From a virus (lineage: Duplodnaviria; Caudoviricetes), in the IMG/VR virus record IMGVR_UViG_3300046028_005651, positions 1 to 36,461 of that record: a stretch of 36,461 nt of DNA; one strand, 5' to 3'. Below the pieces are notes generated by a model that did not search any database, was not told the DNA's origin, and saw nothing but the letters and a program-made list of their open reading frames with translations. Position 1 is the first letter of the stretch. Each line of letters opens with the position of its first letter. Below are positions 8,674 to 32,670 of this stretch, piece after piece. The position numbers and the translations under genes are program-made.

Positions 8674-11600
8674 ATGCCAGAAGAAAAAGATTATTTAGGT
8701 AAGGTGTTTGATACACTAAAAGAAACTGTAGATGGTTTTGATAAAGACGAAGCAACATTCAGAAAAGCAATGTCAGATACTTCGTATGCTTCAAAAGTTC
8801 ACAAAACTTTGTTTGAAAATATAGAGGGGTTTAATAAAACACCTGAACAGTTTTACGAAGCAAGTGGAATTGTTACCGAAAAAAAAAAGCCTTTACCGAA
8901 TACTTTTCGAGATGCTGGAATTTCTTTGGCAAAGCCTTCAACGCAAGAATCAGGGTCGAGTGGTAAAACAAAAACTGTAGAAGAATTTAATGCTAAGTAT
9001 GGCACCAACTATACTGATTTAAAAACAGGCCAAACCAAAGTTGATAATGCAGAAAAAGGAGTATTAGTTCCTTTTTCTCCTATCAAGGTAAAACAACCTA
9101 GTGGTGAGAAAGACTTTATTGCGCCTAAAGTACAATTACCAGACCTTACTAAAGCACCAATGAAACGCTATGAGAAAGCGTATAATGGCATAACAGGTAG
9201 AATTGATAACAATACTAAGGAGTTTGATAAAGTTACAGCAGAAGCAGAAAAACAAGGCAAAGAACTAGAAGGTACAGTTAACAAGTATAATAACGAATTA
9301 AAACAAGCAAGCACAGTTATCCAAAACGAGCTTAAAGCTAAGTACGAAGGGCTTTTAAAGGCAGGAAGTATAAGTGCCGAAGATGCTAATTTAAAACTTC
9401 AAGAAGAGTACAAAAAAGGTTACAGCATAGCTGAAAAACAAATAACAAGCAAATACAAACCTAGTTTAGATTCTTACACCTCGTTACTTGATAAAAGAAA
9501 AACATTAGGCAATTCAATCAAAGGCGATGTCGAAAGAGCAAAGTTATTATCTAATTCAGTAGGCATTATTGAAAGAAATGTTAATGCTCAAAATGTATCT
9601 GAATACAGTAACCTAGAGAACTTAACAGTTTCGGGCTTATCAATGTTAGGTTCTGCAATGTCGGGTTCGTTACCATTTTTTCTAAGATTTACCAATAACA
9701 ATTTAGCCGAGTATGCTGCTAAAAACAATATGCCTGAATTGGTTAAAGTTGCATTTGACAATCAAAAAAGCATAGACAAGTCAGAGTTGCTTCAAAAAAT
9801 GGAAGCGTACGCCAAGGAACAAGCTCAAAAAGGAAGTTACTACTCTAATAAGATTACAGAAAAAGAAGGCACGCTAGTTGATAATTTTAGCCAAGGCAAT
9901 TACGCCCAAGCAGGTAAAGTAGCAAGTTTAAGGTTTTTAGAAAGCATACCAATGATGGGTGCAGCAATAGGCATGACAGCACTTACAGGAGGTACAGCAA
10001 GCGCAATTATTCCGGGTGGGTTTATGTTTGGTTCACAAAACTATTACGGTGAATACGCTGATAGACCCGACATGAGCGAAACTGACAAACTAAATGCTTC
10101 GTTTGTAAAAGGTTCGTTAGAAATGATAACCGAACTAAGTGTTATGCCTTTATTATCTCCACTAAAAGGTTTAATCAAAACAGGTGGTAAAGAAGCAGTA
10201 AGAGAAGCAGTTGAAAAAACCTTATTCAGTTCAATGAAAGAAGGCTATGGTAAATTAGTTCCTTATTTTGGTTGGGTTCAAGAGGGTTTAAGTGAGTATG
10301 CAAACGAAGTAGGAAGCACTATTACTGATAAAATTTTAGACCCTAAATTCCAAGACAAAGATTGGGGACAAGTTATAAAAGAAGCTAACGTAAGAGGTTT
10401 AGAAGCATTTGGGCCAGGTGCATTTGGTGGAGTAACATTAACACTGCCCGTAGCAATTAATAACACCATTAACAAGTACCAAAACAAGAAAATGGCTAGG
10501 GAGTTTGCTTCGGAACTTGAAAAAATAGAAGCAGATATTCAAAACCCTAACTTAACAGAAGCTCAAAAAGACATTCTTATTGCTCGTAAACAAGAAATAC
10601 ACGGTAAATTAAACGAAGTATTTGATGCTGATAAACAAGAAACAGCAGGAGCAACAACAGAACAAGTTTCAGCCCTAGACGATATTAACGACCAACAAGA
10701 CGAAGTTGCAATTGCTTTACAAGACGAAACTATAAGCGATGAAAGTAAAGTAGCATTTGAAGAAAAAGCCAAGGAACTAGCCGAACAAGAAAAAGCAGTT
10801 TTAGAAGAAATAAAAGCAAACGAAATAGTAAATGAAGAAGAACCTAATACAGCCGATAATGGACTTAGTAATGACGTTGTTGAGCCTATTGTAGAACCAA
10901 GCAGCATTTCTAGTAGTGAAGTATCGGCACCTAATAACGTAGAACCAATAAGACAATTAGGTACAGGCGCAAATGTTTATTTTGAAACAGAAAAATATAG
11001 AGTAAACGATTCTAAGGACGGTGTTATTTTAAATATCCAAAATCAATCAGACGAAGTTCCTATAGCTAATATTAAATTTGATAATGCAAATGACGCAGTA
11101 GTAATAGCCAAGGAAATTGAAAGTAAATTTCCTAAGGGAGTTCCTGATGCAATTTTGGTTGAAAAATACGTTGACCAACTAAAAAAAGAATTACTTTCAC
11201 CTACCACAGAAAAACCTAAAGGTGAAACAGCCGAAACCGTTACTACAAAAGAAACTAAGACCGATGAAAGTCCAGTAAATGAGATAAAAAACGGGACAAA
11301 TGGGCTAGAATTATTTAACGAGGCAAAAACCTTTGGCATAAATAAAAGCCCCGACATTACTGACATAGTAATGAATACTGACGTTTTATTTACTACAAAT
11401 AATAAGGGGGAAAAATTACAAGAAGGAGAAGGCTCTTTGCAAGAATTGAGGGATATAATAAAAGAAAATCCTAAAAATAAAGTAAGGCTTGTGGAGGTAA
11501 GAAAAGATGGCGACATTACCGCTGTAACCATAAGAGTAGGTGGGCAAGAAACCATATATAAAGTTGACACAAAAGCAGTAGAAGAACTATTAGCTAAGGA

Positions 11601-14600
11601 ACAAACACCTAATAATAAGGAACAGGCCAAAACACCTACAAACATTAAAGAAAACCCTAATAAGGAAGAAAAAGTAGAAAATAAGGAAGAGCCAAAAAAG
11701 AAAAAACGTGTTCGTAAAAACAAGGTTATTTCAAAAATACTAGACGAGGTTACTGTTGACCCTATTGATAAAGTATTGCAATATTTTATTGGAGGGGGGA
11801 AAATAAACGGAGATAGAAAAAATACCGAAAATGCTATTCAGAAAATATTTGGCAAAAAAGGTGGTGCAAAAGATTTGGATAAAACTTACAAAAGCTATTT
11901 CAATCTAACTAGAAATAATGCTCCAACTTTAAGCGAATTGGCACATTCTTTATGGGAAGAAAATAGAGACAACAGCGACTATACAAGCCAAGACTACGAA
12001 GAGGCTATAATTGAAGTATTATCGACACACAATGGAACTAATTCCATGAAAGAAGCCTTTAATAATAAATTTCAAATAGATGTTTCTGCGGAAGAGATTG
12101 AAAGAGAAGCAGCAGACCAAGCATATATAGACGAGCAAGAGCAAAGGCTAAATGAGCAACAACAAGAACAGTTTAATGAAGAATTGATAACCCAAGAAGC
12201 TATTGACGAACCTTTGGTATTTGAACTTAACGACCAAGAAATTGAACAAGTAGAAGAACTTGGAATTACAGAAGAAACAGAAGAATTAACAGCAGAACAA
12301 TTTGAAGCCTTAGAAGCCTTATTGTTCGGAGAACCACAACCAATAAATAACAACGAAAATGGAAACGAAAAAGAAATTAAGCAAGGAGAAGATAATGTCA
12401 CTCCTAAACAAAGCGAGAGCAAAGAATCTAGCAGACAAGATGCTGAAAGAAAATCAGCCCTCGAAGCAAAAGTAAAAGAAGCTAAAAATGCTTACCAAGC
12501 AGCACAAAGCAAACTAACCAAGGCTAAACAAGCAGCCGAGAAAGCAGGACAAGAACAACAAGCAAATATATTTGGTGGCAAACCTGCCGATGCTTTATTG
12601 TTTGGGACTGATTTACGATCGTTAAATGTTAAAGTTAAAGAAAGACAAGCCGAAGCAGATAAAGCTAAAGAGAACTTAGATAAAGCGCAACTAGCATTGG
12701 ATAGTTTCGTTCCTAGCAATCAAGTTCAGTTGGAAGTAGAAGCACCTTCGGAATCTACAATAGTAAAAGACCCTATTTTAAAGCGTTTAAATAAAGCATT
12801 TTTAAAAATAGGAGCTGAAATACTTGACAACGCAGAACAGTTAGCAGCTAAAGCAAAAGAACTAGCTAGTGGTGGTGCTAAGATTGATTTTAGTATGGAA
12901 CAAGCTATAATCCAATCTGAAAATGTTAAACTAGAATACAATAGCAATGGTAAGCATTTAGCACCTAACGGTAAGCCAAGTAATTTAACAGAACAACAAG
13001 CCAAGATAGTTAGAACACCTGCATTTAAGAAATGGTTTGGAGATTGGGAGAATGACCCTAAAAATGCAAGTAAAATTGTTGATAAAAATGGTGAGCCTAT
13101 GGTTGTTTACCATGGAACAGGAAGCACTATTACTGAATTTGATAAAAACACTAGAGGTTCAAATACAGGTGCTAGTTCAGCAGAAAAAGGTTTTTTTGTA
13201 TCTGATACGAAAAGTATTGCAGAATCTTACAGAAGAGCAGTTCAGGTAGAAAACCCTAACCTAGAAGGGCTTAAAACTATTTTATCTGAATTATCGGTAG
13301 AGGAGTTAAAGCAATTTGGTAAAGGTGTAATGGGTTACGATATAAGAACATTTGAGAAAGGTGATTACACTAAAGAAGAAATAGAATACGAGTTATTTAG
13401 AGATATTGAAAACGATAGTGAAGGCTATTATGCAGACAGAAGAAAACTTATTGAAAAAGCCTCAAAATACTTAAAAGAAAACAAAATAGAGTTTTCTCCA
13501 TACCAAAATACAGGAATGCTTATAGAAGGGTTTTTAAATATTAGAAATCCTAAAAAAATTGATGCGGAAAGTCAAACTGCTTTTGATATAGACTTACCAG
13601 GTATTATAGACAATTCTGTATCTGAAAACAAAGACGGTGTTTGGGTTGAAAATGTTTACGATTCAGTTTCGTTTACCGAAAAAGGAACTGATACAGAAGA
13701 AGGTTCTATTATGGTTTTCTTCGAGCCTAATCAAATTAAATTAGCTGACGGAACAAATACTACCTTTGATAGTAAAGTAAACGATTTTAGGTACAACATT
13801 ACTTTACCTAACGGTAGCCAAAAACAAGTAAAAGCTATTGACGTAGATGTAGTAAACGGATTTTATTCACCATTAGAAAAAGTAATTAGCGAAGCTAAAC
13901 AAGATAAAATGCCTGCTAAACAATGGGCTGAAAAATTTGCTAAAGGAGAAGAAGCTAAATGGACTGGATTACAAGATTGGTTAGCACAACAACAAGGTTC
14001 TGTTTCTAAAACTGATATTCAAAACTTCCTTAAAGAAAATAGGATTGAAGTTGTTGAAGTGGTGAAGAGTGATAATGCCGATTCTTATAGCATGGATAGG
14101 TACGAAGAGTTTCCGCAAGAAGTTAAAAACATTGCGGAAGAATTTGGCGAAGACGAAGATGAATTTACTCGGCAATTAGAAGCAATAGGATATCAAGTTA
14201 ATAGAGATATGGACGGAAGTATTCTTTCTTTTAATAAAAAAGGAGAAGAGAACAAGTTTGACAAAGCCACGAAATTCTCTCAATACCAATTAGAAGGAGA
14301 AAAAGAAAACTATAAAGAGGTGTTGGTTACGATGCCTATTGCTAAATCAAAACAAGAATATGTAGTTGAACAAGATTACAGAATACCAAATACATTTTAC
14401 GCAGTTAATCAAAAAACAGGTGTAAAATTAAAGTTTGGAAGTTATGAATTAGCAAAATCACAAGCAGAACGATTAAGTAAAGAAGCTCAACCCGACTTTG
14501 ATAAACAATTCAAATCTTCACACTTTGACGAACCAAACATACTTGTTCACCTTAGAATGAATACAAGAGTAGATTCAGAAGGTAATAAAGTATTATTCCT

Positions 14601-17600
14601 TGAAGAAATACAAAGTGATTGGGGCCAACAAGGTAAAAAGTTAGGTTTTGCGACAACCAATGCAGAAAAAAGAAAAAAAGAATTACTTGCAAAAGATGAA
14701 TTAACAAAATCTGAATTAAATGAGCTTGATTCACTAAACAAAGAGTTAGGTTTTGATACTAAAACACCTGCAGCACCATTCGTAACAGACACAAACGCTT
14801 GGACTAAACTTGGCTTAAAAGTAGCTTTAAAAGAAGCAGTAAAGCAAGGAGCAACTAAAATAGCATGGACTACTGGTGAGCAACAAAACGAACGTTACGA
14901 CTTAAGTAAAAGTATTGAAGTTGTTTACGCAACAAAAGGTGATGAAAAAGGAAAATTAGGAGAATATTTTATTGAAGCAACACCAAAAGATGGTGGACCC
15001 CCTGCAATTGCAGAGTGGGTTAAGGAAGAAAAACTTGAAAGTATAATCGGGAAAGACCTTGCAGAAAAAATAATTAGCAATAACGGAGGTGAGTTTAGGG
15101 GTGATAACCTTAAAGTAGGTGGCAAAGGCATGAAAGGCTTTTACGGCTCACCAACAGAAGGTAGTTTAGGTATAGTAGGAAATGTAGCGAAGAGCTTATT
15201 CAAGCAAGAACCTAAAACAATTGGTATTGTAGTGAACTCTAATGCAAAAGTCAAAATGCCTAACGAAGAAGCTACTATTGAAAAAGTAAATAGCAGAAAC
15301 GGTTGGTTAGTGTTTAATCCGTTTGAAGGAGAAGACTATAGCTTTAACACAGAGAAAGAGGCTGACAAATACATTTCGGAACTCAAACTTAAAGAAAACG
15401 AAAAAAGTGTTTCAACCCAATATTCAATTGACATAACACCTGAATTAGCAGCAACAGTAGAACAAGGACAACCTTTATTCCACTTAAACGACAAAGGAGA
15501 AATACTTGGCTTTACTTATAACGGTAAAATATACCTTAATGGTGAAAAAATAACAGCTAAAACCACAATGGAAGAAGCTGGGCATATTTGGATTAATTGG
15601 GCCAAAGAAAACCGTTCAGATTTATACCAACAAGGCTTAGAGAAGGTACAAGGAAGCAAATATCTAATTGAAGTAAACAATAACCCTAGTTATCAAAAAG
15701 AAGCCCTTAAACAAGGAGAAAAAGGCAGTGATGCTTACAATGCTTATATGCAAGAAGAAGCACTAGCAAAAGCAATAGCTGATAATGGTGCCAAGTTTAT
15801 TTCAGAAACTAGAAAAGCAAGTTTTAGAGAGTGGGTAAATGCTATGTGGAAAGAAGTAGCAAAAGCCTTCGGAATACAAAACTTAAACCCTAGCGAAGTA
15901 AAAGCATTAACATTAGAAGAATTTGCTAGAATGGCTGCTGCAGATGTGTTTAGTAGTAAAGAAACACCTGTTCAAGAACAAGCAGTTGAAAAAGTTGAAG
16001 ATGCAAAATTAACAGATTTAGAAAACGAAGTTTGGGAGAACGTACTATCAAAAGGACAAGGCTTAGCTTTGCCTTCTAGTAAAGTGGCAAACTCGGACTA
16101 TCCTAATTTAATAGGTAACGATTTGGTTTATATTGATAGTTGGGGAAGCGGTAAAACAGTATCTTTAAAACTTACTCCTAAAGGTGAATTAGTAGCGTTA
16201 AAAGAACAACTTAAAAAAGCTAAACTAACTGATAGTAAAAGAAAAATTCAAGAGCGCATTGACGAATTAGAAGGTAACGAGCCAAAAGTACCTAAAGGAC
16301 CTAGCGATGGACTTGGAAGTACAACAGCAGCTAATACAAATAACATTACTCCAACTCAAAACGCAGAACGAGTAAGCATGAAGTTTCATTTAGAGCTTAA
16401 AAAACTAATTGAAAGTATTGGAGTGCCAATAGCAGAAAGAAACTTATCTAAACGCTTCCTAGGTATCTTTAAACATAGAGGTATGAATATTCGTGTTCAG
16501 AGTTTATTTGGTGTAGCTACTGCAGCACACGAAACAGCACACTGGGTAAGTAAAAAGTTTGGTATTGGAGAGGCTTTAAGAGAAAAATCAGCAGTAGTAG
16601 CAGCTAATCCAGATGCACAACTAAATAAAGATATTAGAAAAGCCTTGACTGATATTTACACAGAGTTTTATCCTAATGCTAAAAAAGAACATAGCCTTTA
16701 TTTAAGAGTTGAAGAAGGTATTGCAGTTTTAATGGAGCATTATTTAACCGACCCAACTGATATAACAAATCGTTATGGAATTTTAGTAGATAATTTTATT
16801 GCACCAACAGGAAAATACTATCACCCTAAATTCACTGAATTACTAGACAAGTTAAATAAGTTCCTTGCTGAATATTCGGCATTGTCGCCTAACGAAAAAA
16901 TAGGATCAAGAATAGTTAGTGGAGAAGAAGTAACTAAAAAGAACGAAGGTTTTACGCCAAAGCAAGCAGTAATTCGCGGACTTGTTAACGCAGCAGAACC
17001 ATTAAGAAGAGCTGATAACATTGCAGATGCAGGTTTAACAGAAGAATCTACAGAAGTAGCTTATATCAGGTGGTTAAGCAGGGCAGGTATTATTGCTCCT
17101 TGGATTACAGGGGAAACACACCCAATTACGTTAGATAGAAATGGTAATTGGAAAGAAGTTGGGGCTAGTGTAAAAGACTACTTAGAACTTATCAAAGGCA
17201 GAGAAGCGGAATTTAGCCAATACCTAGTAGCCAGAAGGAACCTTGGCGATGTTAACTATCTTACTGAAATGGAAAATGAGTTAGCAGAAATACTAGCTAA
17301 TATTGAAAATGAAGAGGATTTAACCAAAGAGGAAGTTGAAGAAATAAATGAACTTTCGGCTCGTATTGAGAAGCAAAAACAAATTATTAAAAACGATAAT
17401 TTTGATATTCAACAAGTAACGGCAACAGTTAGAATGTTTGAAGATAAGTTTAAAGCACCTGTAGCTATTTACGATAAATTAAATAATGCTGCAGTAGATT
17501 TTGCTCAAAAGTCAGGATTGATTAGTAGCGAAACAGCCGAGGCTTACAAGGCCAATACGACCTATACTTCGTTCAAAAGACAAATAATGGACGATATTGC

Positions 17601-19668
17601 TAGTAATGTATTAGCACCAGGGACTAGCTCGCAATCTAAAGTAAGCGCATTCAAGGAAAGAAAAGGTAGTGACTTAGCAATTATTGATCCTGTTTATTCT
17701 CAAATCCAATTCATAACAGAAACATTGAATAAAGGTATGCAGAATATGATTTGGCAAAAACTAGCAGCACTTGGAAATAACAACGTAGAATTAGCTAGAA
17801 GATTTGAGAAAGTAGAAACAATAAGAGTAGTTGATCCAATAAGCGGTAAAATAACATACCCTCAAATGGGTAAACCTGGGCTTATAATGGTTAAGACTAA
17901 TGGTAAGCCAAGTTTTTACTTAGCAGCACCTGAATATGTAGCACTAGCAGAAACTTTAACTCCAAAAGAGTTAGAAACAATGGCCTATATTTTAACTAAG
18001 TCAGCAGGTATATTTAGTAGGCTTACAACTTCGGCAAATCCTTTATTCCCTCTTGTAAATATCCCAATAGATACAATGTCGGCATGGATGAATACTAAAA
18101 CAGGTTTTATTCCAGGTTGGAGCCAAATGAGAGCAATACCTGAAATGGCTAGTTACGCTAAAGATAAAGCATTGTTATCTGTAAAAAACTTAGCTAACAC
18201 AGCAATTGATTTCCTACATAACATGATTATCATTGGAGATTGGTTTAAAGGCATTAAAAATATACCTATTAAAAACCTATCGTTAGAAGAGCAAAATCTG
18301 TTTGCAAAATACCTAGCACTAGGAGGAAGCACACAAACACTTTCGTCTTACTTAGATATGTCGCCAGAGGAAATGATTAAAGCGATAACAGAAAAAAGTT
18401 TGGCTAAAAAAGTTGCACAGCATATTGACGATTTTACATTAGGAATACTTGAAATGCCAAGTAACGCTTCTGAATACATGACTAGATTCGCAGAATTTAA
18501 AAGAGCAAAAGACCAAGGCTATTCAGATGACGTAGCAATGTATATGGCAGCTCATGTGTCGGTTCCTTTTATACAAAGTGGTACTTATGGTGGACAAGTA
18601 GGTAAAACAACCGTAAAAGCCGTTCCTTACTTCCATGCAGGTATTCAAGTTATATCTAAGTTTGCTCAAACAGCTAAAAATAATCCAACGAGAACAGCAA
18701 CTATTGGAGCAGCATTGATAGCTATTAAGATAAGTCAAACACTTTTAACCATGGCACTATCTGACGATGATGATAAAAGAATGTTAGCAGAGCAAGAACC
18801 AAGTGAATTAGGTAAATACATTTATGTTCCTAACAAGTTGTTTGGAGGTAAAGGTTTTACTAGAATAAGATTTGGTAATGAGTTTGGAACCATTTCGGCA
18901 CCAATTGAAATGATGATATTGCAAAATAAAGGCTTGGCTAAATACAATTACAAAGACTATTTAGACGCTACTACAACTGCTATACCACAACAGTTTAATA
19001 TATTTAAACCTATTGAGGCTTTATGGGCCTATACGCCACAAATAGTAAGGCCATCTTTAGAAGTAGGTTTTAATGTTAGGACTTATCCAAACGTAAGACC
19101 AATCGTTCCTTATGGTGTTAGCTTTAAGTCGCCAATGAATCAGTATAATCAATATACTACAGAAACATCAAAATACCTTGGAAAATTAGCGGGTGTTTCT
19201 CCAATGAAAATTGATTACTTTATTAAAGCACAATTTGGTAAGGTTCCGGATATGCTACTTAGAAAAACAGAAGAAATAGTAGTTGGTAAAGAAAATAAAT
19301 CAAAAAGTCAAATATTTTTACAAGAGGAGCAATATGTATTAGCAGGAAAAAATTACACTGATTTTTATGAAAATAATAAATATTGGGATGAACTTTATAA
19401 CGATACAAAATCAATCAGAAAAAGTGGAGTTGATTTAAATAAAGAACAACTTGAAGTTATTGAAAACCATAAAATATTTAACAATACAGAATCTATTATT
19501 AAAAAAATGAGAGATAAAGTAAATGAAAATATTGAACTTCCAGAATACTTAAAGCAATCAGCGTTCGAGTTACTTATTGATTTAAATAATTCAGACAAAC
19601 CTTATACTTTTGTAGATAAATATACAAAACTAAAAAACAATTATTTAAAAGCATTCCCAAATAACTAA
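8674..19668 (+). CDS. Giant polyvalent virion (ejection) protein with ART-like, GNAT-like, two zincin-like and LPD38-like regions
   Basis: 3664 aa. Gly/Ala-rich hydrophobic segments (~9630-10460). 'APNGKPSNL..FKKWFGDW..PMVVYHGT..GFFVS..FEPNQIK' (~12950-13740, ART-PolyVal-like). 'FYSPLEK..SHFDEPN..LEEIQSDW..GMKGFY' (~13860-15200). EEAGH (15571-15585) and HETAH (16528-16542) zincin-like motifs. C-terminal 'TRFAEFKRA..SPMKIDYFIK' region is LPD38-like. Confidence 0.75.
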   Translation: MPEEKDYLGKVFDTLKETVDGFDKDEATFRKAMSDTSYASKVHKTLFENIEGFNKTPEQFYEASGIVTEKKKPLPNTFRDAGISLAKPSTQESGSSGKTKTVEEFNAKYGTNYTDLKTGQTKVDNAEKGVLVPFSPIKVKQPSGEKDFIAPKVQLPDLTKAPMKRYEKAYNGITGRIDNNTKEFDKVTAEAEKQGKELEGTVNKYNNELKQASTVIQNELKAKYEGLLKAGSISAEDANLKLQEEYKKGYSIAEKQITSKYKPSLDSYTSLLDKRKTLGNSIKGDVERAKLLSNSVGIIERNVNAQNVSEYSNLENLTVSGLSMLGSAMSGSLPFFLRFTNNNLAEYAAKNNMPELVKVAFDNQKSIDKSELLQKMEAYAKEQAQKGSYYSNKITEKEGTLVDNFSQGNYAQAGKVASLRFLESIPMMGAAIGMTALTGGTASAIIPGGFMFGSQNYYGEYADRPDMSETDKLNASFVKGSLEMITELSVMPLLSPLKGLIKTGGKEAVREAVEKTLFSSMKEGYGKLVPYFGWVQEGLSEYANEVGSTITDKILDPKFQDKDWGQVIKEANVRGLEAFGPGAFGGVTLTLPVAINNTINKYQNKKMAREFASELEKIEADIQNPNLTEAQKDILIARKQEIHGKLNEVFDADKQETAGATTEQVSALDDINDQQDEVAIALQDETISDESKVAFEEKAKELAEQEKAVLEEIKANEIVNEEEPNTADNGLSNDVVEPIVEPSSISSSEVSAPNNVEPIRQLGTGANVYFETEKYRVNDSKDGVILNIQNQSDEVPIANIKFDNANDAVVIAKEIESKFPKGVPDAILVEKYVDQLKKELLSPTTEKPKGETAETVTTKETKTDESPVNEIKNGTNGLELFNEAKTFGINKSPDITDIVMNTDVLFTTNNKGEKLQEGEGSLQELRDIIKENPKNKVRLVEVRKDGDITAVTIRVGGQETIYKVDTKAVEELLAKEQTPNNKEQAKTPTNIKENPNKEEKVENKEEPKKKKRVRKNKVISKILDEVTVDPIDKVLQYFIGGGKINGDRKNTENAIQKIFGKKGGAKDLDKTYKSYFNLTRNNAPTLSELAHSLWEENRDNSDYTSQDYEEAIIEVLSTHNGTNSMKEAFNNKFQIDVSAEEIEREAADQAYIDEQEQRLNEQQQEQFNEELITQEAIDEPLVFELNDQEIEQVEELGITEETEELTAEQFEALEALLFGEPQPINNNENGNEKEIKQGEDNVTPKQSESKESSRQDAERKSALEAKVKEAKNAYQAAQSKLTKAKQAAEKAGQEQQANIFGGKPADALLFGTDLRSLNVKVKERQAEADKAKENLDKAQLALDSFVPSNQVQLEVEAPSESTIVKDPILKRLNKAFLKIGAEILDNAEQLAAKAKELASGGAKIDFSMEQAIIQSENVKLEYNSNGKHLAPNGKPSNLTEQQAKIVRTPAFKKWFGDWENDPKNASKIVDKNGEPMVVYHGTGSTITEFDKNTRGSNTGASSAEKGFFVSDTKSIAESYRRAVQVENPNLEGLKTILSELSVEELKQFGKGVMGYDIRTFEKGDYTKEEIEYELFRDIENDSEGYYADRRKLIEKASKYLKENKIEFSPYQNTGMLIEGFLNIRNPKKIDAESQTAFDIDLPGIIDNSVSENKDGVWVENVYDSVSFTEKGTDTEEGSIMVFFEPNQIKLADGTNTTFDSKVNDFRYNITLPNGSQKQVKAIDVDVVNGFYSPLEKVISEAKQDKMPAKQWAEKFAKGEEAKWTGLQDWLAQQQGSVSKTDIQNFLKENRIEVVEVVKSDNADSYSMDRYEEFPQEVKNIAEEFGEDEDEFTRQLEAIGYQVNRDMDGSILSFNKKGEENKFDKATKFSQYQLEGEKENYKEVLVTMPIAKSKQEYVVEQDYRIPNTFYAVNQKTGVKLKFGSYELAKSQAERLSKEAQPDFDKQFKSSHFDEPNILVHLRMNTRVDSEGNKVLFLEEIQSDWGQQGKKLGFATTNAEKRKKELLAKDELTKSELNELDSLNKELGFDTKTPAAPFVTDTNAWTKLGLKVALKEAVKQGATKIAWTTGEQQNERYDLSKSIEVVYATKGDEKGKLGEYFIEATPKDGGPPAIAEWVKEEKLESIIGKDLAEKIISNNGGEFRGDNLKVGGKGMKGFYGSPTEGSLGIVGNVAKSLFKQEPKTIGIVVNSNAKVKMPNEEATIEKVNSRNGWLVFNPFEGEDYSFNTEKEADKYISELKLKENEKSVSTQYSIDITPELAATVEQGQPLFHLNDKGEILGFTYNGKIYLNGEKITAKTTMEEAGHIWINWAKENRSDLYQQGLEKVQGSKYLIEVNNNPSYQKEALKQGEKGSDAYNAYMQEEALAKAIADNGAKFISETRKASFREWVNAMWKEVAKAFGIQNLNPSEVKALTLEEFARMAAADVFSSKETPVQEQAVEKVEDAKLTDLENEVWENVLSKGQGLALPSSKVANSDYPNLIGNDLVYIDSWGSGKTVSLKLTPKGELVALKEQLKKAKLTDSKRKIQERIDELEGNEPKVPKGPSDGLGSTTAANTNNITPTQNAERVSMKFHLELKKLIESIGVPIAERNLSKRFLGIFKHRGMNIRVQSLFGVATAAHETAHWVSKKFGIGEALREKSAVVAANPDAQLNKDIRKALTDIYTEFYPNAKKEHSLYLRVEEGIAVLMEHYLTDPTDITNRYGILVDNFIAPTGKYYHPKFTELLDKLNKFLAEYSALSPNEKIGSRIVSGEEVTKKNEGFTPKQAVIRGLVNAAEPLRRADNIADAGLTEESTEVAYIRWLSRAGIIAPWITGETHPITLDRNGNWKEVGASVKDYLELIKGREAEFSQYLVARRNLGDVNYLTEMENELAEILANIENEEDLTKEEVEEINELSARIEKQKQIIKNDNFDIQQVTATVRMFEDKFKAPVAIYDKLNNAAVDFAQKSGLISSETAEAYKANTTYTSFKRQIMDDIASNVLAPGTSSQSKVSAFKERKGSDLAIIDPVYSQIQFITETLNKGMQNMIWQKLAALGNNNVELARRFEKVETIRVVDPISGKITYPQMGKPGLIMVKTNGKPSFYLAAPEYVALAETLTPKELETMAYILTKSAGIFSRLTTSANPLFPLVNIPIDTMSAWMNTKTGFIPGWSQMRAIPEMASYAKDKALLSVKNLANTAIDFLHNMIIIGDWFKGIKNIPIKNLSLEEQNLFAKYLALGGSTQTLSSYLDMSPEEMIKAITEKSLAKKVAQHIDDFTLGILEMPSNASEYMTRFAEFKRAKDQGYSDDVAMYMAAHVSVPFIQSGTYGGQVGKTTVKAVPYFHAGIQVISKFAQTAKNNPTRTATIGAALIAIKISQTLLTMALSDDDDKRMLAEQEPSELGKYIYVPNKLFGGKGFTRIRFGNEFGTISAPIEMMILQNKGLAKYNYKDYLDATTTAIPQQFNIFKPIEALWAYTPQIVRPSLEVGFNVRTYPNVRPIVPYGVSFKSPMNQYNQYTTETSKYLGKLAGVSPMKIDYFIKAQFGKVPDMLLRKTEEIVVGKENKSKSQIFLQEEQYVLAGKNYTDFYENNKYWDELYNDTKSIRKSGVDLNKEQLEVIENHKIFNNTESIIKKMRDKVNENIELPEYLKQSAFELLIDLNNSDKPYTFVDKYTKLKNNYLKAFPNN
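8879..8966 (+). other. Candidate -1 frameshift / slippage site (A10G containing A_AAA_AAG) with 25-codon trans-frame extension
   Basis: In-frame GAA AAA AAA AAG (8878-8889). The -1 frame reads AFTEYFSRCWNFFGKAFNARIRVEW, stop TAA 8964-8966. Confidence 0.4.
12359..12475 (+). CDS. Possible nested out-of-frame small basic protein, 38 aa
   Basis: METKKKLSKEKIMSLLNKARAKNLADKMLKENQPSKQK in the +1 frame of the giant gene, preceded by an A-rich leader (CAATAAATAACAACGAAA-ATG). Confidence 0.35.
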   Translation: METKKKLSKEKIMSLLNKARAKNLADKMLKENQPSKQK

Positions 19669-19669
19669 C

Positions 19670-20203
19670 ATGAAAAAACTAACATACCCTTTAAAGGAAG
19701 AGGCATTAAGCCTATTAAAAGAGCTTTTAGAGCTTGAATTTGACCAAAGCTATACTTGGACATACATAGCAATGTGTATGCAAAATTACGGCTATTTTAG
19801 AGCAGCTAATTATTTTAGTGACGAAGCTAAAGAAGAACGTAAACACGCAAGCATGCACATTGAGTATTTACTTGGTAGAGGTTACGAAGCTAAACTACCG
19901 AAGATTGCACCACCTGAATTAGAACTAGAAGACCTAAAAGGTGCGATTAAATACGCTTTTGAGCTAGAGAGTGAAGTAACTGACAAGTATGCTAAAATAA
20001 CTCGTAAAATGTTAGATATTGACCTTTTAACCTATAACTTCTTACTGCAGTTCTTAACGTTTCAACAAGATGCATTAGCTAAGTACTCGGACTTATACAG
20101 TCAAATTGATAGCTGTAAAGAAGTTGAAGACCAAAAAGAAATGGAGAAGTGGATATTTGGTCACGAAGCAAGTGAAGAGCCTGTAAAGTCTATTGTTCAA
20201 TAA
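19670..20203 (+). CDS. Ferritin-like protein
   Basis: 177 aa four-helix pattern with ferroxidase-like residues: 'LEFDQSYTWTYIA', 'EAKEERKHASM', 'AFELESEVT', 'NFLLQFLTFQQD'. Confidence 0.85.
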   Translation: MKKLTYPLKEEALSLLKELLELEFDQSYTWTYIAMCMQNYGYFRAANYFSDEAKEERKHASMHIEYLLGRGYEAKLPKIAPPELELEDLKGAIKYAFELESEVTDKYAKITRKMLDIDLLTYNFLLQFLTFQQDALAKYSDLYSQIDSCKEVEDQKEMEKWIFGHEASEEPVKSIVQ

Positions 20204-20208
20204 ATTAA

Positions 20209-20240
20209 CTTGATTTATCTAAAGTAATGATTTAGATTTG
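20209..20240 (+). promoter_or_regulatory. Bacteroidota promoter
   Basis: CTTG (20209-20212), 20-nt spacer, TAGATTTG (20233-20240). Confidence 0.65.
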
Positions 20241-20267
20241 TAACTCACAATTAAACCAATAAATAAA

Positions 20268-20534
20268 ATGGCTTTTTTAACATCAACAAGTGTGTACGCG
20301 ATGAACGGAACCACTTATCAAACACCTATCACAGTAGGAATCGAAAATGCAAATGTTCGTGCTGTAAACCCAGTAAGAAACGGTTCAGGAGCATGGATTG
20401 GAAAGTATGAACCAAGCAACAAAAGTCTGATTTATTCAGAGATTGTAGTTGGTAAAGACAAAATGAGTTCTGACGTTGACTACTACTACGCAAATCGTAC
20501 AGTTGCTCAAATCATAAGCGCAGTTAACGCTTAG
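20268..20534 (+). CDS. Small monocistronic protein, 88 aa (possibly a virion protein)
   Basis: Has its own promoter, an A-rich initiation region and a strong downstream terminator. Confidence 0.75.
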   Translation: MAFLTSTSVYAMNGTTYQTPITVGIENANVRAVNPVRNGSGAWIGKYEPSNKSLIYSEIVVGKDKMSSDVDYYYANRTVAQIISAVNA

Positions 20535-20553
20535 TAATCAGTCTAAAACACTT

Positions 20554-20592
20554 AAAATAAGCCATTCGTTAATTCGGGTGGCTTATTTTTTT
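20554..20592 (+). terminator. Rho-independent terminator, probably bidirectional
   Basis: AAAATAAGCCATTCG-TTAATT-CGGGTGGCTTATTTT hairpin with a T7 run on the 3' side and an A run on the 5' side. Confidence 0.85.
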
Positions 20593-20615
20593 GTGCAAAA
20601 TTTTAATTATCTGAA

Positions 20616-20655
20616 CGACACGCTGTTGTACTCTATGTCGTACATAGTGTCGGAT
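20616..20655. repeat. Three 12-bp-period direct repeats (TGTYG core) plus one inverted copy; operator/iteron-like
   Basis: TGTTGTAC 20624, TGTCGTAC 20636, TGTCGGAT 20648; inverted CGACA at 20616. Confidence 0.5.
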
Positions 20656-20659
20656 TTTA

Positions 20660-20691
20660 CTTGTTTTAGACTTTTAAATGTATTTAGTTTG
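20660..20691 (+). promoter_or_regulatory. Variant Bacteroidota promoter for the early/replication transcript
   Basis: CTTG (20660-20663), 20-nt spacer, TTAGTTTG (20684-20691); one mismatch to TAnnTTTG. Confidence 0.45.
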
Positions 20692-20711
20692 TTCGCAGAA
20701 AGGAGGTGAAA

Positions 20712-20771
20712 ATGTTTTACATGGTTGAGAGAATTAAGTGCCGAAAGGGTGTTAGTCAAAAACCTAAATAA
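20712..20771 (+). CDS. 19-aa leader minigene with extended Shine-Dalgarno
   Basis: AGAAAGGAGGTG (20697-20708), then ATG 20712; MFYMVERIKCRKGVSQKPK, stop. Confidence 0.4.
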   Translation: MFYMVERIKCRKGVSQKPK

Positions 20772-20793
20772 GATAGTTTTATTCCTTTAAGGT

Positions 20794-20906
20794 TGTTTTG
20801 TAGCTTAAGGGTAAAGCCAAAGAAAAGCTGTTAGTATCGCGCGGTATGTAGCTAGGGATAGCGGAAGCAGTAATAAGGAATGGGAGTTCGAATCTCCCCA
20901 AAACAT
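20794..20906 (+). ncRNA. tRNA-like element with an expanded, non-canonical anticodon region
   Basis: 7-bp acceptor TGTTTTG/CAAAACA; T8-A9; D arm GCTT-AAGGGTA-AAGC; T arm GGGAG-TTCGAAT-CTCCC. 64 nt lie between the D and T arms instead of about 23. Confidence 0.7.
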
Positions 20907-20995
20907 CAAATAATTGATAATGCCTTGCTTAGTTTCTCACTAAGGTTTAAAAGCAAGGGGAAGGATAGTCAAGTGTAAACTTGTTCTTTGACATA

Positions 20996-21046
20996 TAGGT
21001 TCTATGGCATTGGTAGCCATAGCTGAATGAGTAACCACGAAACCTA
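20996..21046 (+). ncRNA. Type III hammerhead ribozyme (variant core)
   Basis: Stem III TAGGT/ACCTA; cleavage triplet GUU (cut after 21001); stem I CTATGGC-ATTGGTA-GCCATAG; core CTGAATGA; stem II GT-AACC-AC; GAAA. Confidence 0.8.
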
Positions 21047-21052
21047 CAAGCA

Positions 21053-21256
21053 ATGAGCAAGATTAAACAAGAGATTATCGACAAAATCGCAACAGACTAC
21101 AAACTGCGTTCTGATATTGGACGTGATTGTGATTTACACGAAAGAACAATACAGAGATGGGCTAAAGACGAACCCAAAAAACTAGAAACAAAATCAATAG
21201 TGCTAGTTATATCAACCTACTTTCCTGAACACGAAACAATTTTAGAGGAGCAATAA
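21053..21256 (+). CDS. Small helix-turn-helix (Cro-like) DNA-binding protein
   Basis: 67 aa; 'RSDIGRDCDLHERTIQRWAK' fits an HTH pattern. First gene of the early module. Confidence 0.65.
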   Translation: MSKIKQEIIDKIATDYKLRSDIGRDCDLHERTIQRWAKDEPKKLETKSIVLVISTYFPEHETILEEQ

Positions 21257-26443: not shown

Positions 26444-26633
26444 ATTAAGAGATAAACTTATCGAACAAATAGATAAGATTGAAAAAGGAGAAATGCCTTT
26501 AGAAAAAGCAAGAGAAATATCAAGAACAAGTCAAGCAATACTTGAAAGTGTTAGGCTAGAAATTGAATACTCGAAACTTATTAATAGTAAAGTAAAAATA
26601 GATTTTTTGGAGGTAGAAAATGAAACACTTTAA
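26430..26633 (+). CDS. Small helical protein
   Basis: 67 aa; 'AREISRTSQAILESVRLEIEYSK'; overlaps both neighbours. Confidence 0.65.
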   Translation: MKINKLRDKLIEQIDKIEKGEMPLEKAREISRTSQAILESVRLEIEYSKLINSKVKIDFLEVENETL

Positions 26634-27183
26634 ACTAATCGGCTTATTATTAGCCATAAACCTTATTTGCTTTTTTATACCTCGTGAATACTATCAGTAT
26701 TTAACGATACAAAGCAATGTAACTGATGCACTTCAAACTATTGGGCAATGTTTTACTTACATATTTATGTCTGAAAACATATTCCACTTGGTACTAAACG
26801 GACTATTTTTAGTTTCGTTAGCTAGACTTATAGTATTTACTATTCCAGATATTCTATTTGTAGCCTACTACATACTTTGGGGAGTTTTAGTTGGAATAAT
26901 TAACTACATAATAGCTTCGCATGACACCTACCATTATTTAATAGGCAACAGTGGTGTTTTATATGCGTTTATAGGCTACATAACTGTATTCTCACCCAAT
27001 ATAGAAGTAAAACTATTTGGAAGCTATAAAATGAGTTTCTTAGGCTTCGGAGTGGTAATATTTTCGTTATCTATAATCAGCATAGTATTTGGCAATAACG
27101 TTTATGGAGATATAGCCCACATAAGCGGATTTATTTTAGGGCTTATAACAGCTAAAATTTATAGTAGAATACAATTATGGTAA
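26620..27183 (+). CDS. Rhomboid-family intramembrane serine protease
   Basis: Multiple TM helices; 'FHLVLN' (HxxxN), catalytic 'GNSG' (26944-26955) and 'AHISGFILG' (His at 27118-27120). Confidence 0.85.
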   Translation: MKHFKLIGLLLAINLICFFIPREYYQYLTIQSNVTDALQTIGQCFTYIFMSENIFHLVLNGLFLVSLARLIVFTIPDILFVAYYILWGVLVGIINYIIASHDTYHYLIGNSGVLYAFIGYITVFSPNIEVKLFGSYKMSFLGFGVVIFSLSIISIVFGNNVYGDIAHISGFILGLITAKIYSRIQLW

Positions 27184-30386: not shown

Positions 30387-30710
30387 ATGAGTAGAAACAA
30401 CAAACTTAGAGAAATGGCTGAAAAGCTACCAGAAGCACCAAACTTAGTAAACGGTAAACCTCAATACGATAGTAGTGGCAAACTAATAATGGCCAACCAC
30501 TTTCGTAACTTAAAAGAAATTGAGAGAACGGTAGAGAAACTTGGATTTAGCAATAAAAGCCCTCAAATGCTTAGTGCTTGGAACAAATACACACAAGCAG
30601 TAATTAAGTACAACAACCGTAAAATAATGCGTGAGAGAGCAACTTATTTTAGTGTGTGGGTATTCCTTATGGTTAGTATTGTTGCAGTTATTATTAAATA
30701 TTGGAGGTAA
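30387..30710 (+). CDS. Hypothetical protein with C-terminal TM helix
   Basis: 107 aa ending FSVWVFLMVSIVAVIIKYWR. Confidence 0.65.
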   Translation: MSRNNKLREMAEKLPEAPNLVNGKPQYDSSGKLIMANHFRNLKEIERTVEKLGFSNKSPQMLSAWNKYTQAVIKYNNRKIMRERATYFSVWVFLMVSIVAVIIKYWR

Positions 30711-30711
30711 G

Positions 30712-32670
30712 ATGAATGTTCTCTCATTATTTGACGGTATGAGCTGCCTACAGATTGCAATGAAGGAGTTGGGTTTAAAAGTAGATAATTACTTTGCTAG
30801 TGAAATTGATAAACACGCTATTGCACAAACTCAACTCAACTTTCCTAATACTATACAACTAGGAAGTGTAACAAGAATAAACACAAAAACGATTTTTTTA
30901 TCGGAGGTATATTCTTATATTTGTAATAAATATTTTAAAAATGACATACACAATTTACAAAGCATCATTCCCGAATGGGAAATGCTACATAGGATTAACG
31001 AAGCGCAAACTTTCGCAGCGTATTATGGAACACAAGTCGAGAATGAAAATAAAAAAATACCAACAAATTCCAATTTATCAATTAATGACAGAATTTGGTT
31101 TTGGAAATGTCCAATGGGAGGCGATAACGGAGTTTACGACATTGCCAGAAGCGGAAGCAGAGGAAAAATTGCAAATAAAATTGATGTCGGGGATTTGTGT
31201 AAATATTCTTTCTGGTGGAATGGGGACAGACAACACGAATCCAGAGTTAAGGAGGAGGGTTTCTTTGGGGCAGATAGGGTTGAAGAAAACAGAAGCAACA
31301 AAACAGAAGCTAAGGGAAATCGCAATCAAGCAATTTTCGAGAGTAGAGGCAAGAGAACACCAAAGAATGAAAGCAAATCAGCAGTTCCAGAATCCAATAA
31401 TGAAACAAAACCATATAAATGCAATGGCGAAAAAAGACTGGATATTAATAGCGGAGAAGAAGAAAGAAACGGAAGAGAAAAAAAGAGTGGCGAGGTTTGT
31501 AAAAATGAGGGAGATTTACAAACCAACAATGAAGTTAACAGAGTTGGCGGAATTGACAGGGTTTTCTTATCAATTTATAAGGAAGTACAAGTCACAATTA
31601 TTGAGTGTGAATGGGGAGTAATTATTTCAAAAGGAATCTTCCAATTTACGGGCGGTGGATCGCCATGCACAAATTTCAGTTTTGCTGGTAAGCGCAAAGG
31701 AATGAGTACTAAAAGTGAAACAGAAATACTAACCCTAGAACATTACTTACAGCTAAAAAGTGAAGGATTTGAGTTTGAAGGCCAATCGTATTTGTTTTGG
31801 GAATATATGAGAATACTAACCGACATAAGAAAAGTAAATCCTAGTGTAAAGTTTTTGTTGGAAAACGTAGAAATGGGCGAAAAGTGGGAAAAGATTTTGA
31901 GCCGAGCAATTGGTGTAAATGGTATTCATATTAATTCTGCCTTGGTTTCAGCACAAAACCGAAAGCGTATTTATTGGACTAATATTGGTATGCAGCCACA
32001 AGGTTTATTTGGCGATTTGCAAAGCATAATTACTCAACCACGCAACAAAGGCATTTTACTGAAAGATATTTTGGAAACTGAAGTGGATGAAAAGTATTTT
32101 TTGAGTGAAAAGGCAGTTGAAAATATTATAAAACATAAAGAAAATCAAACTTTAAAAGGATTTGGATTTGGTGCAAAGTTTCATGAAGAAAATGAAAAGA
32201 TGGGTGCTTTAAAAATTGGCGGCAAAGGTGTTGATGATTTAGTTGTTCATAACTTAATGCCTAGATCGAGTAAAAGCGGAAAAGGTGGTACTGGTCCATT
32301 AAGTAGAAACGATGGAAAAACTTATTGTTTAGACACAGGCAATACCAACGCAATTGAAGTAATTAACAAAGACGACTTGGTTATCCAGTTAAATCCTAGC
32401 AAAGAAAGTGGTGGGCAGCAACCATATCAACAAAACAGAGTTTACAGTGAAGACGGTATAATGCCTGCTTTAAACGCTCAATTAGGTGGTAGAAACAATA
32501 TCCAAACCACTTCGCAAATAAGAAGACTTACGCCAACAGAATGTGCTAAACTCCAAACTATACCCGAATGGTACACATGGAACTGTTCGGACACACAACA
32601 ATATCGTATGCTTGGCAATGGCTGGACAATATCAGTAATAACTCACATATTAAACTATTTAAAAAATTAA
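30712..32670 (+). CDS. DNA (cytosine-5) methyltransferase with a ~245-aa in-frame insertion
   Basis: Motif I 'MNVLSLFDGMS', II 'ASEID', IV 'GGSPC', VI 'LLENV', VIII 'AQNRKRIYW', IX 'RRLTPTECAKLQ', X 'MLGNGW'. True start taken as ATG 30712, 1 nt after the upstream stop. Confidence 0.9.
   Translation: MNVLSLFDGMSCLQIAMKELGLKVDNYFASEIDKHAIAQTQLNFPNTIQLGSVTRINTKTIFLSEVYSYICNKYFKNDIHNLQSIIPEWEMLHRINEAQTFAAYYGTQVENENKKIPTNSNLSINDRIWFWKCPMGGDNGVYDIARSGSRGKIANKIDVGDLCKYSFWWNGDRQHESRVKEEGFFGADRVEENRSNKTEAKGNRNQAIFESRGKRTPKNESKSAVPESNNETKPYKCNGEKRLDINSGEEERNGREKKSGEVCKNEGDLQTNNEVNRVGGIDRVFLSIYKEVQVTIIECEWGVIISKGIFQFTGGGSPCTNFSFAGKRKGMSTKSETEILTLEHYLQLKSEGFEFEGQSYLFWEYMRILTDIRKVNPSVKFLLENVEMGEKWEKILSRAIGVNGIHINSALVSAQNRKRIYWTNIGMQPQGLFGDLQSIITQPRNKGILLKDILETEVDEKYFLSEKAVENIIKHKENQTLKGFGFGAKFHEENEKMGALKIGGKGVDDLVVHNLMPRSSKSGKGGTGPLSRNDGKTYCLDTGNTNAIEVINKDDLVIQLNPSKESGGQQPYQQNRVYSEDGIMPALNAQLGGRNNIQTTSQIRRLTPTECAKLQTIPEWYTWNCSDTQQYRMLGNGWTISVITHILNYLKN
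30916..30923 (+). promoter_or_regulatory. Internal Bacteroidota -7 promoter element for the nested endonuclease
   Basis: TATATTTG, 17 nt upstream of ATG 30941, followed by an AT-rich leader (TAATAAATATTTTAAAA). Confidence 0.6.
30941..31621 (+). mobile_element. GIY-YIG homing endonuclease gene (NUMOD3-like motif, C-terminal HTH) nested in the +1 frame of the methyltransferase
   Basis: 'TIY...CYIGLT...RIMEH', 'AEAEE', 'VNILSGG'; NUMOD3-like 'GLKKTEATKQKLRE'; HTH-like 'LTELAELTGFSYQFIRKY'. Confidence 0.85.

What the first reader, a model, noticed from the sequence alone, without database searches (positions are those of the whole stretch)
20996..21046. Variant type III hammerhead ribozyme 6 nt upstream of the first early gene
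Seen: complete topology TAGGT-T^-CTATGGC(ATTGGTA)GCCATAG-CTGAATGA-GT(AACC)AC-GAA-ACCTA. Unusual points are one extra nucleotide in the CUGANGA core, a 2-bp stem II and a GUU cleavage triplet. Loop I (GGT) is complementary to loop II (ACC), suggesting the loop-loop contact that activates natural hammerheads. Inference: cleavage after 21001 gives the HTH/replication mRNA a defined 5'-OH end with a 7-bp hairpin and separates it from the upstream RNA cassette.
Basis: partly seen in the sequence, partly recalled or inferred. Interest (0 to 1): 0.75.

Follow-up and report, generated by a model that had tools for sequence, protein, structure and literature searches.

The report
Kissing-loop phage hammerhead, extra core base
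This 51-base stretch has every part of a hammerhead self-cutting RNA plus one extra core base, and it belongs to a phage subfamily whose two loops keep pairing as their letters change; it likely cuts the phage transcript just ahead of a small regulator gene and gives that message its own clean start, but cutting has not been shown.

Summary
Rfam misses it. Pattern scans found 83 distinct relatives in phage and metagenome contigs, one in cultured Vibrio phage Phriendly. They share a 7-bp stem I, an RUUNNNA loop and a 3-bp loop I/loop II kiss that covaries (GGU/ACC, UGU/ACA, AGU/ACU, CGU/ACG, CGC/GCG, GGC/GCC). Stem II is effectively one pair: the second pair holds in only 49 of 83. The extra base is the known, weakly active A6a variant (Perreault 2011), but here it occurs in 24 of 79 members against 1 of 117 classic GUCC/GGAC-stem II hammerheads. 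It is gained or lost repeatedly. Most members sit within 25 nt of a start codon (55 of 83), some in ribozyme-gene-ribozyme arrays. Best reading: cleavage after 21001 gives the HTH message a hairpin-capped 51-nt leader, like a natural RiboJ insulator. In this phage the uncut RNA is also predicted to bury the AUG. Cleavage, rate and the 'first early gene' label are untested. A syntenic relative lacks the whole cassette. Verdict: new variant of a known kind.

The parts
20996..21046 (+). Type III hammerhead ribozyme, kissing-loop subfamily, 8-nt (A6a) core
   Evidence: (64.6 bits with model R1, which includes this sequence; the only hit in the window)
20996..21001 (+). Stem III 5' strand (20996-21000) and U17 (21001); predicted cleavage between 21001 and 21002 (GUU triplet)
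   Evidence: sequence; site inferred from hammerhead numbering; triplets GTC 58, GTT 12, ATC 10, CTC 2, TTC 1 of 83
21002..21022 (+). Stem I (7 bp) with loop I ATTGGTA (21009-21015); would be the 5'-terminal hairpin of the cleaved mRNA
   Evidence: 7 of 7 pairs change on both sides, 99.8% of cells paired
21012..21014 (+). Loop I kissing triple GGU, pairs with 21034-21036
   Evidence: 3 of 3 Watson-Crick pairs in 81 of 83; five compensated alternatives
21023..21030 (+). Core CUGAAUGA with one extra base (A6a, at 21026/21027)
   Evidence: 27 of 83 members have an 8-nt core (AU 21, UU 3, AA 2, AC 1); A6a described in PMC3088659
21031..21038 (+). Stem II/loop II: G10.1-C11.1 pair, variable second pair, kissing triple ACC at 21034-21036
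21039..21046 (+). GAA core and stem III 3' strand ACCTA
21053..21256 (+). 67-aa Cro/XRE-like helix-turn-helix gene, 6 nt after stem III
20980..20990 (+). Upstream strand predicted to pair with 21051-21061 across the AUG in the uncut RNA (extension of stem III)
   Evidence: prediction only
20907..20995 (+). Upstream segment nearly unchanged in close relatives (two predicted hairpins; AAGGATAGT also precedes the Phriendly hammerhead)
20794..20909 (+). tRNA-like RNA (acceptor, D and T arms; anticodon arm replaced by an insert); variable slot in relatives
   Evidence: read by eye; not called by ARAGORN or Rfam; variants
20556..20593 (+). Terminator-like hairpin plus U run closing the structural gene block; also present in relative L429
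   Evidence: by eye; not listed by the scan

Best explanation
This is a type III hammerhead fold with a conserved loop-loop pairing, which likely cuts the phage transcript between 21001 and 21002 and would give the HTH-gene message its own hairpin-capped 51-nt leader, free of the upstream RNA cassette. Shown: the fold, its covariation, the 3-bp kiss that supports a one-pair stem II, and the family's position just ahead of start codons. Inferred: (1) the RNA folds during transcription and cleaves by the standard hammerhead chemistry, leaving a 2',3'-cyclic phosphate upstream and a 5'-OH downstream; (2) the kiss lets the core tolerate the extra base, probably at a reduced rate; (3) the product works like a RiboJ insulator, with a fixed 5' end, a protective hairpin and a start codon no longer tied to whatever module lies upstream; (4) in this phage the cut is also what allows translation, because the uncut RNA is predicted to bury the AUG.
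For: Fold and family: 84 of 97 hits of a scan that did not specify stems fit the full scaffold, and 90 of 92 in a scan that also left the kissing triple free; against 2 of 120 in cellular genomes. Alignment A1: 95.3% of cells paired, 15 of 18 pairs change on both sides, slid controls 34-47% paired. The 27 members with 8-nt cores all keep stem I and the kiss, with many pair types, so they are under structural selection. Position: ATG of a 40-codon or longer ORF within 25 nt of stem III in 55 of 83, against 14.7% of 1080 random positions. Ribozyme-gene-ribozyme arrays: four hammerhead-like hits in L246, each followed by a gene. In close relatives 20907-21044 stays essentially unchanged while the upstream tRNA slot and the downstream HTH allele are swapped. 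Precedent: clustered phage hammerheads cleave in vitro and in E. coli; A6a, one-pair stem II and pseudoknot variants are active; the HF1/HF2 transcript 5' end maps within 3 nt of a hammerhead site (PMC3088659). Local AUG burial: opening -15..+3 costs 9.6-11.3 kcal/mol uncut against 1.6 cut; 0-1 of 200 flank shuffles reach it.
Against: No cleavage was measured. The one published A6a example has low activity. RNA-library contigs X12 and X14 run across 21001/21002: uncut RNA or DNA carry-over, and no silent control stretch was laid. Family-wide, cleavage eases start-site opening only modestly (median 5.3 to 4.6 kcal/mol; 2 kcal/mol or more in 11 of 73), and natural flanks are no more occluding than shuffled ones, so step 4 is not general. 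The two cleavage products are predicted to stay paired (about -16 kcal/mol), so release needs the cut to come before the long helix forms, or needs decay of the 5' piece. The window is the most extreme of 73 cases and was singled out after the fact. Syntenic relative L429 lacks the ribozyme and the whole cassette, so it is accessory. Members of A1 were filtered for stems I and III, which inflates those pairing counts (the kiss was not filtered).
Confidence: 0.62

Rival explanations
1. Tuned slow switch: the extra base sets a slower cut, and the race between cleavage and formation of the AUG-burying helix doses or delays the HTH regulator. The one-base change would act as an easily reversible dial.
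For: 8-nt core in 24 of 79 members against 1 of 117 classic-scaffold hammerheads; both states occur in 5 of 47 flank clusters; A6a reported as slow; strong local AUG helix; a competing upstream hairpin can take up the anti-AUG strand.
Against: All 27 8-nt cores can arise by duplicating a neighbouring base, so slippage plus tolerance explains recurrence without tuning. Strong AUG burial is not general among 8-nt members. By eye the helix is shorter with the other HTH allele seen in relatives.
Confidence: 0.2
2. The main job is to make the 3' end of the upstream noncoding RNA (tRNA-like element plus 20907-20995), as theta ribozymes do for phage tRNAs; the mRNA end is a by-product.
For: 20907-21044 travels as one conserved block behind a variable tRNA slot; Phriendly has about 1.4 kb without annotated genes upstream and shares AAGGATAGT; theta ribozymes cut next to phage tRNAs (PMC10879173 abstract).
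Against: The cut lies about 92 nt behind the tRNA-like 3' end. ARAGORN found a tRNA in only 1 of 56 loci, though it also misses this window's tRNA-like element. The family is placed relative to downstream start codons. AGGATAG precedes only 2 of 83 members.
Confidence: 0.1
3. A decayed, inactive copy: the insertion kills activity and the element is a leftover.
For: The consensus core is broken; the insertion is expected to disturb a U4 contact; RNA contigs span the site; L429 does without it.
Against: 27 of 27 8-nt members keep 7 of 7 stem I pairs and the full kiss with compensatory changes; the element is unchanged in relatives whose flanks differ; the same core occurs in a cultured phage.
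Confidence: 0.07
4. Chance match or assembly artefact.
For: The 51-mer's folding z-score is only -1.26; Rfam has no hit.
Against: 0 of 200 shuffles; 83 distinct covarying relatives; same letters in five runs.
Confidence: 0.01

Closest known systems
Type III hammerhead ribozymes of phages and prophages, with loop I/II pseudoknots (Perreault et al. 2011, PMC3088659)
   Same: Topology, core, NUH site, short stem II, base-paired stem I/II contact (about 40% of their set), clustering around single genes, position just ahead of phage genes (HHphage 13 nt before a helicase gene).
   Different: A fixed geometry (7-bp stem I, 7-nt RUUNNNA loop, 3-bp loop-loop kiss, one-pair stem II) that I did not find described; their type III pseudoknots go mostly with a 2-bp difference in stem lengths, here 5-6. 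Their type III alignment could not be read, so 7-nt-core members may already be listed there.
Natural core variant A6a (PMC3088659, Fig. 5 and S6)
   Same: One base inserted after A6.
   Different: Reported as a rare, low-activity variant; from the scrambled figure text it appears to be a marine-metagenome RNA in another arrangement. Here it is about 30% of one scaffold and recurs.
Pseudoknot-containing hammerhead (PDB 8YDC, PMC11300833; I recall it as RAGATH-1, Rfam RF03152)
   Same: A pseudoknot does much of the work of helix II.
   Different: There a 6-bp pseudoknot forms with an extra stem-loop (helix IV) and replaces helix II. Here a 3-bp kiss forms with loop I itself and G10.1-C11.1 remains. 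No Rfam hit.
RiboJ insulator and SD-releasing hammerhead aptazymes (engineered; PMC6206723, PMC7536230, PMC5367253)
   Same: Hammerhead cleavage upstream of a start codon removes the variable leader, leaves a 5' hairpin and can free the ribosome-binding site.
   Different: Those are synthetic parts with measured effects. This is a natural element with a different scaffold and no measured effect.
Theta (HDV-like) ribozymes of gut phages (PMC10879173)
   Same: Small self-cleaving RNA downstream of a phage tRNA-type element.
   Different: Different ribozyme class; their cut is next to the tRNA, here about 92 nt away.

Membership tests
Hammerhead ribozyme (class) | [quoted passage not shown] | tested here: met
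   Stems I and III covary; stem II is one constant pair (fixed by the search patterns) plus a variable second pair; one-pair stem II is known to be active.
Hammerhead ribozyme (class) | Core C3 U4 G5 A6 ... G8 A9, G12 A13 A14, A15.1-U16.1, H17 | tested here: met
   All present.
Hammerhead ribozyme, strict consensus | Exactly one base (N7) between A6 and G8 | tested here: not met
   Two bases (AU); matches the published A6a variant. 56 of 83 relatives have the strict core.
Hammerhead ribozyme (class) | [quoted passage not shown] | tested here: met
   3-bp kiss, Watson-Crick in 81 of 83, with five compensated alternatives.
Hammerhead ribozyme (class) | Self-cleavage 3' of H17 giving 2',3'-cyclic phosphate and 5'-OH | not testable with these tools
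   Only assembled contigs were available; they cannot show ends.
Type III permutation | Stem III open, loops on stems I and II | tested here: met
Rfam hammerhead families (as held in release 15) | Score at the family's gathering threshold | tested here: not met
   No hammerhead model hit at E<=10 for the window or Phriendly; no Rfam hit at E<=5 in 15 member loci, 12 of them picked for the strict core.
Pseudoknot-containing hammerhead (8YDC type) | Extra stem-loop (helix IV) forming a 6-bp pseudoknot in place of helix II | tested here: not met
   The partner is loop I and the pairing is 3 bp.
Theta ribozymes | HDV-like fold, cut adjacent to a tRNA 3' end | tested here: not met
   Hammerhead fold; site about 92 nt from the tRNA-like end.
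RiboJ-like insulator (works like) | Cleavage standardises the 5' end and raises or stabilises downstream expression | not testable with these tools
   Position and module swapping fit; no expression data.

The most novel reading that the evidence does not exclude
Phages use this kissing-loop hammerhead as a natural translation switch with a one-base speed dial. The kiss makes the 'forbidden' core insertion tolerable (30% of members against 1% in the classic scaffold), slippage flips it on and off, and in this phage the slower cut races an AUG-burying helix to dose a Cro-like regulator.
Probability: 0.2. Interest if true: 0.72.

Novelty: new variant of a known kind. Interest (0 to 1): 0.45.

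Why it matters
What bacterial and phage self-cleaving ribozymes do is largely unknown (PMC6765202, passages). This subfamily makes the question testable: natural pairs of loci that differ only or mainly by the extra core base, a covarying kiss that can be broken and rescued, a cultured phage on a standard laboratory host (Phriendly on Vibrio natriegens) and a clear prediction for translation. It also shows that Rfam misses a phage hammerhead scaffold entirely, and that a core insertion thought rare is common in one scaffold. Each ingredient taken alone (type III, A6a, one-pair stem II, pseudoknot, position before phage genes) is already in print.

Tried and rejected
Rfam scans of the window, the 20540-21120 region, Phriendly and 15 member loci gave no hammerhead hit. 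Close relatives were not found by exact pattern in viral or metagenome contigs, nor through the HTH protein; the tools may withhold near-identical records. blastn of three other members against cultured phages gave only short chance-like matches; Phriendly was the only cultured member found. Seven loci fetched through the methyltransferase carry no family hammerhead (best E 0.22); only L429 is syntenic over this region. A family-wide 'cleavage frees the ribosome-binding site' rule was tested on 73 of 83 members (10 lacked a nearby ATG ORF or enough flank) and is weak; an SD-like word began inside stem III in 24 of 67 under a loose definition. A general tRNA association was not found (1 of 56 loci). 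No promoter was identified: TTGACA at 20988 has no matching -10, and no TAnnTTTG (a recalled Bacteroidota motif) lies in 20501-21060. A scan for the tRNA-like insert found nothing. Read-laying gave contigs only, so no ends, strand or level; X1 and X2 are flagged as probably DNA. Literature searches for a description of this scaffold found none: 'hammerhead'+'A6a' (only PMC3088659 relevant), (0 papers); supplement searches of PMC3088659 (only the first 300 of 1018 dataset pages were readable, so its type III alignment was not seen) and PMC13481778 (2 of 11 ATTGGTA places shown, both unrelated). The 2015 paper that introduced the pseudoknot variant was not held.

Full report
1. Observation. The window is an IMG/VR virus record, linear, 54% complete. 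Structural genes lie left of about 20.5 kb and replication genes to the right. A Bacteroidota host is inferred from DUF3127, a sub-threshold crAss muzzle hit, SD-like words before only 6 of 31 starts and the Atlas taxa of the HTH protein; that this phylum rarely uses SD sequences is recalled. The element reads exactly as reported, with the ATG 6 nt after stem III. A loose type III descriptor matches once in the window and in 0 of 200 dinucleotide shuffles. Folding energy alone is unremarkable (z -1.26). Rfam gives no hammerhead hit even at E<=10.

2. A family. blastn of the region found one relevant match among 50,697 phage records, Vibrio phage Phriendly. It has the same loop I and 8-nt core, compensatory changes in stems I and III, and an ATG 7 nt downstream. 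A scan with both loops unspecified returned 117 loci, in which the folded short-stem-II hits carried RTTGGTA and ACC, apart from a few weak folds. A scan fixing TTGGTA but leaving stems and core length free gave 97 viral hits, 84 fitting the whole scaffold. The same pattern in cellular genomes gave 2 of 120. A scan that also freed the kissing triple gave 90 of 92. Pooled: 191 records, 83 distinct sequences. On alignment A1, 95.3% of cells pair, 15 of 18 pairs change on both sides, and slid controls pair at 34-47%. Members were filtered for stems I and III, so the pass rates above are the fairer evidence for those stems.

3. Anatomy. Stem I is 7 bp (7 of 7 paired in 82 of 83; the search patterns fixed its length and the loop's). 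The loop I/loop II kiss was not filtered. It is fully Watson-Crick in 81 of 83: GGU/ACC 63, UGU/ACA 6, AGU/ACU 4, CGU/ACG 3, CGC/GCG 3, GGC/GCC 2, each alternative in 2-4 flank clusters. The second stem II pair holds in only 49 of 83, so stem II is effectively one G-C pair supported by the kiss. GUU is the second most common triplet (12 of 83). Fifteen member loci, 12 picked for the strict core, gave no Rfam hit at E<=5.

4. The extra base. Perreault et al. 2011 (PMC3088659; I read parts 1-6 of 7 of the main text, supplements S5 and S6 as text, and the first part of the dataset) already name this insertion A6a and report low activity. They also describe one- and two-pair stems II, pseudoknots in about 40% of hammerheads, and clusters flanking phage genes. 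What I did not find in print is its frequency in one scaffold. In scans that left core length free, 24 of 79 distinct members have 8 nt, against 1 of 117 folded hammerheads with the classic GUCC/GGAC stem II (first 130 of about 550 stretches, 89 type I and 28 type III, 5 unfolded dropped; sequences are not independent, so the p-value of 5e-10 overstates). By flank cluster it is 15 of 47, five holding both states. All 27 8-nt cores (AU, UU, AA, AC) can arise by duplicating a neighbouring base, so slippage explains the recurrence. All 27 keep stem I and the kiss with diverse pairs, which argues against decay. The 8-nt core also occurs in other scaffolds.

5. Context. An ATG opening 40 or more codons lies within 25 nt of stem III in 55 of 83, against 14.7% of 1080 random positions. 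One contig carries four hammerhead-like elements in 5 kb, each followed by a gene, and a fifth 3.5 kb away. The downstream gene here is a Cro/XRE-like HTH by language-model and predicted-structure likeness but has no Pfam or PHROG hit. In public assemblies of close relatives, 20907-21044 is unchanged apart from a homopolymer indel and at most one edge letter or a 61-base insert at 20980. The tRNA-like slot upstream differs or is replaced. The sequence after 21044 is often another one that, read by eye, encodes a diverged allele like P0002/P0003. Against essentiality, syntenic relative L429 (78% identity over 20151-20592) goes from the terminator to a different small gene with no cassette and no ribozyme.

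6. Mechanism. Most likely the RNA cleaves at 21001/21002 (inferred; about 0.85 that it cleaves at all). The product would start with a 5'-OH and the stem I hairpin and carry a 51-nt leader, as with the engineered RiboJ part (PMC6206723 and PMC7536230, passages). In this window the uncut RNA is predicted to extend stem III: 20980-20990 pairs with 21051-21061 across the AUG. Opening the start region costs 9.6-11.3 kcal/mol uncut and 1.6 cut, and 0-1 of 200 flank shuffles reach that. This resembles SD-releasing aptazymes (PMC5367253, passages). Three results weigh against making it a rule. Across 73 members the effect is small and natural flanks are no more occluding than shuffled ones. The cut products are predicted to stay paired by about 16 kcal/mol. 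The window was the extreme case, noticed after the fact. ViennaRNA also ignores the kiss. RNA-library contigs cross the cut site, which shows uncut RNA or DNA and does not decide the matter. Confidence: insulator/processing 0.62, tuned slow switch 0.20, 3'-end maker for the upstream RNA 0.10, dead copy 0.07, chance 0.01.

7. Comparison and novelty. It works like a type III hammerhead and meets every structural feature except the strict 7-nt core; it is not a member of any Rfam model at threshold. It differs from the crystallised pseudoknot hammerhead, which uses an extra stem-loop and a 6-bp pseudoknot (PMC11300833, first part and passages; PMC12192606, passages), and from theta ribozymes (PMC10879173, abstract). 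PMC10085705 and PMC13481778 (passages) and PMC13725137 (abstract) do not describe it in what I saw. My searches found no description of the scaffold, but the 2011 type III alignment and the 2015 variant paper were out of reach, and either may bear on novelty. Earlier AI notes of this scan report the same core variant in other phages; they are not independent support.

8. Verdict. Real, conserved, probably active; a new variant of a known kind. Interest 0.45. The most novel reading (one-base speed dial coupled to a translation switch) has probability 0.2 and would deserve 0.72.

Noticed in passing
window 20794-20909 (+): tRNA-like RNA with acceptor, D and T arms but an insert of about 60 nt in place of the anticodon arm; not called by ARAGORN or Rfam. 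Relatives carry diverged copies, and one run shows part of the insert on a different tRNA-like 5' half. A pattern scan for the insert found nothing.
   Followed up: partly
window 20700-20772 (+): A perfect AAGGAGGTGA Shine-Dalgarno sequence before a 19-codon ORF, odd in a phage whose genes mostly lack SD words; predicted to be paired in a long hairpin.
   Followed up: no
window 20907-20995 (+) and L001 about 1478-1490: Segment nearly unchanged in close relatives, with two predicted hairpins; its AAGGATAGT also precedes the Phriendly hammerhead, but AGGATAG precedes no other of 83 members.
   Followed up: partly
L246 2496-4696 (-) and L245: Array of at least five type III hammerhead-like elements in one phage contig, of several scaffolds and with both 7-nt and 8-nt cores.
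   Followed up: partly
L004, L061, L076, L077, L109: 8-nt CUGAAUGA core on the classic 4-bp GUCC/GGAC stem II scaffold; L004 has a 7-nt-core hammerhead about 360 nt upstream.
   Followed up: partly
L145 713-766 (-); L273 4243-4298 (-), L275, L291; L262 2609-2647 (-): Further variants: one family member with GUA triplet and GGAA in place of GAAA; 8-nt cores with a longer stem II and an extra base before GAAA; a truncated family copy just upstream of an intact one.
   Followed up: no
L001 134-1490 (Vibrio phage Phriendly): About 1.4 kb without annotated genes ahead of the hammerhead, with tRNA-like words near 1105-1200; no convincing Rfam match.
   Followed up: no
window 8674-19668, 19670-20203, 26620-27183: 3664-aa polyvalent protein with ART-PolyVal and LPD38 domains, a ferritin-like gene and a rhomboid protease gene in this phage.
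   Followed up: no
window 30631-32670: Cytosine methyltransferase ORF of 679 aa whose Pfam and PHROG matches begin only at residue 342, with a second ORF in another frame at 30941-31621; possibly an insertion or overlap.
   Followed up: no
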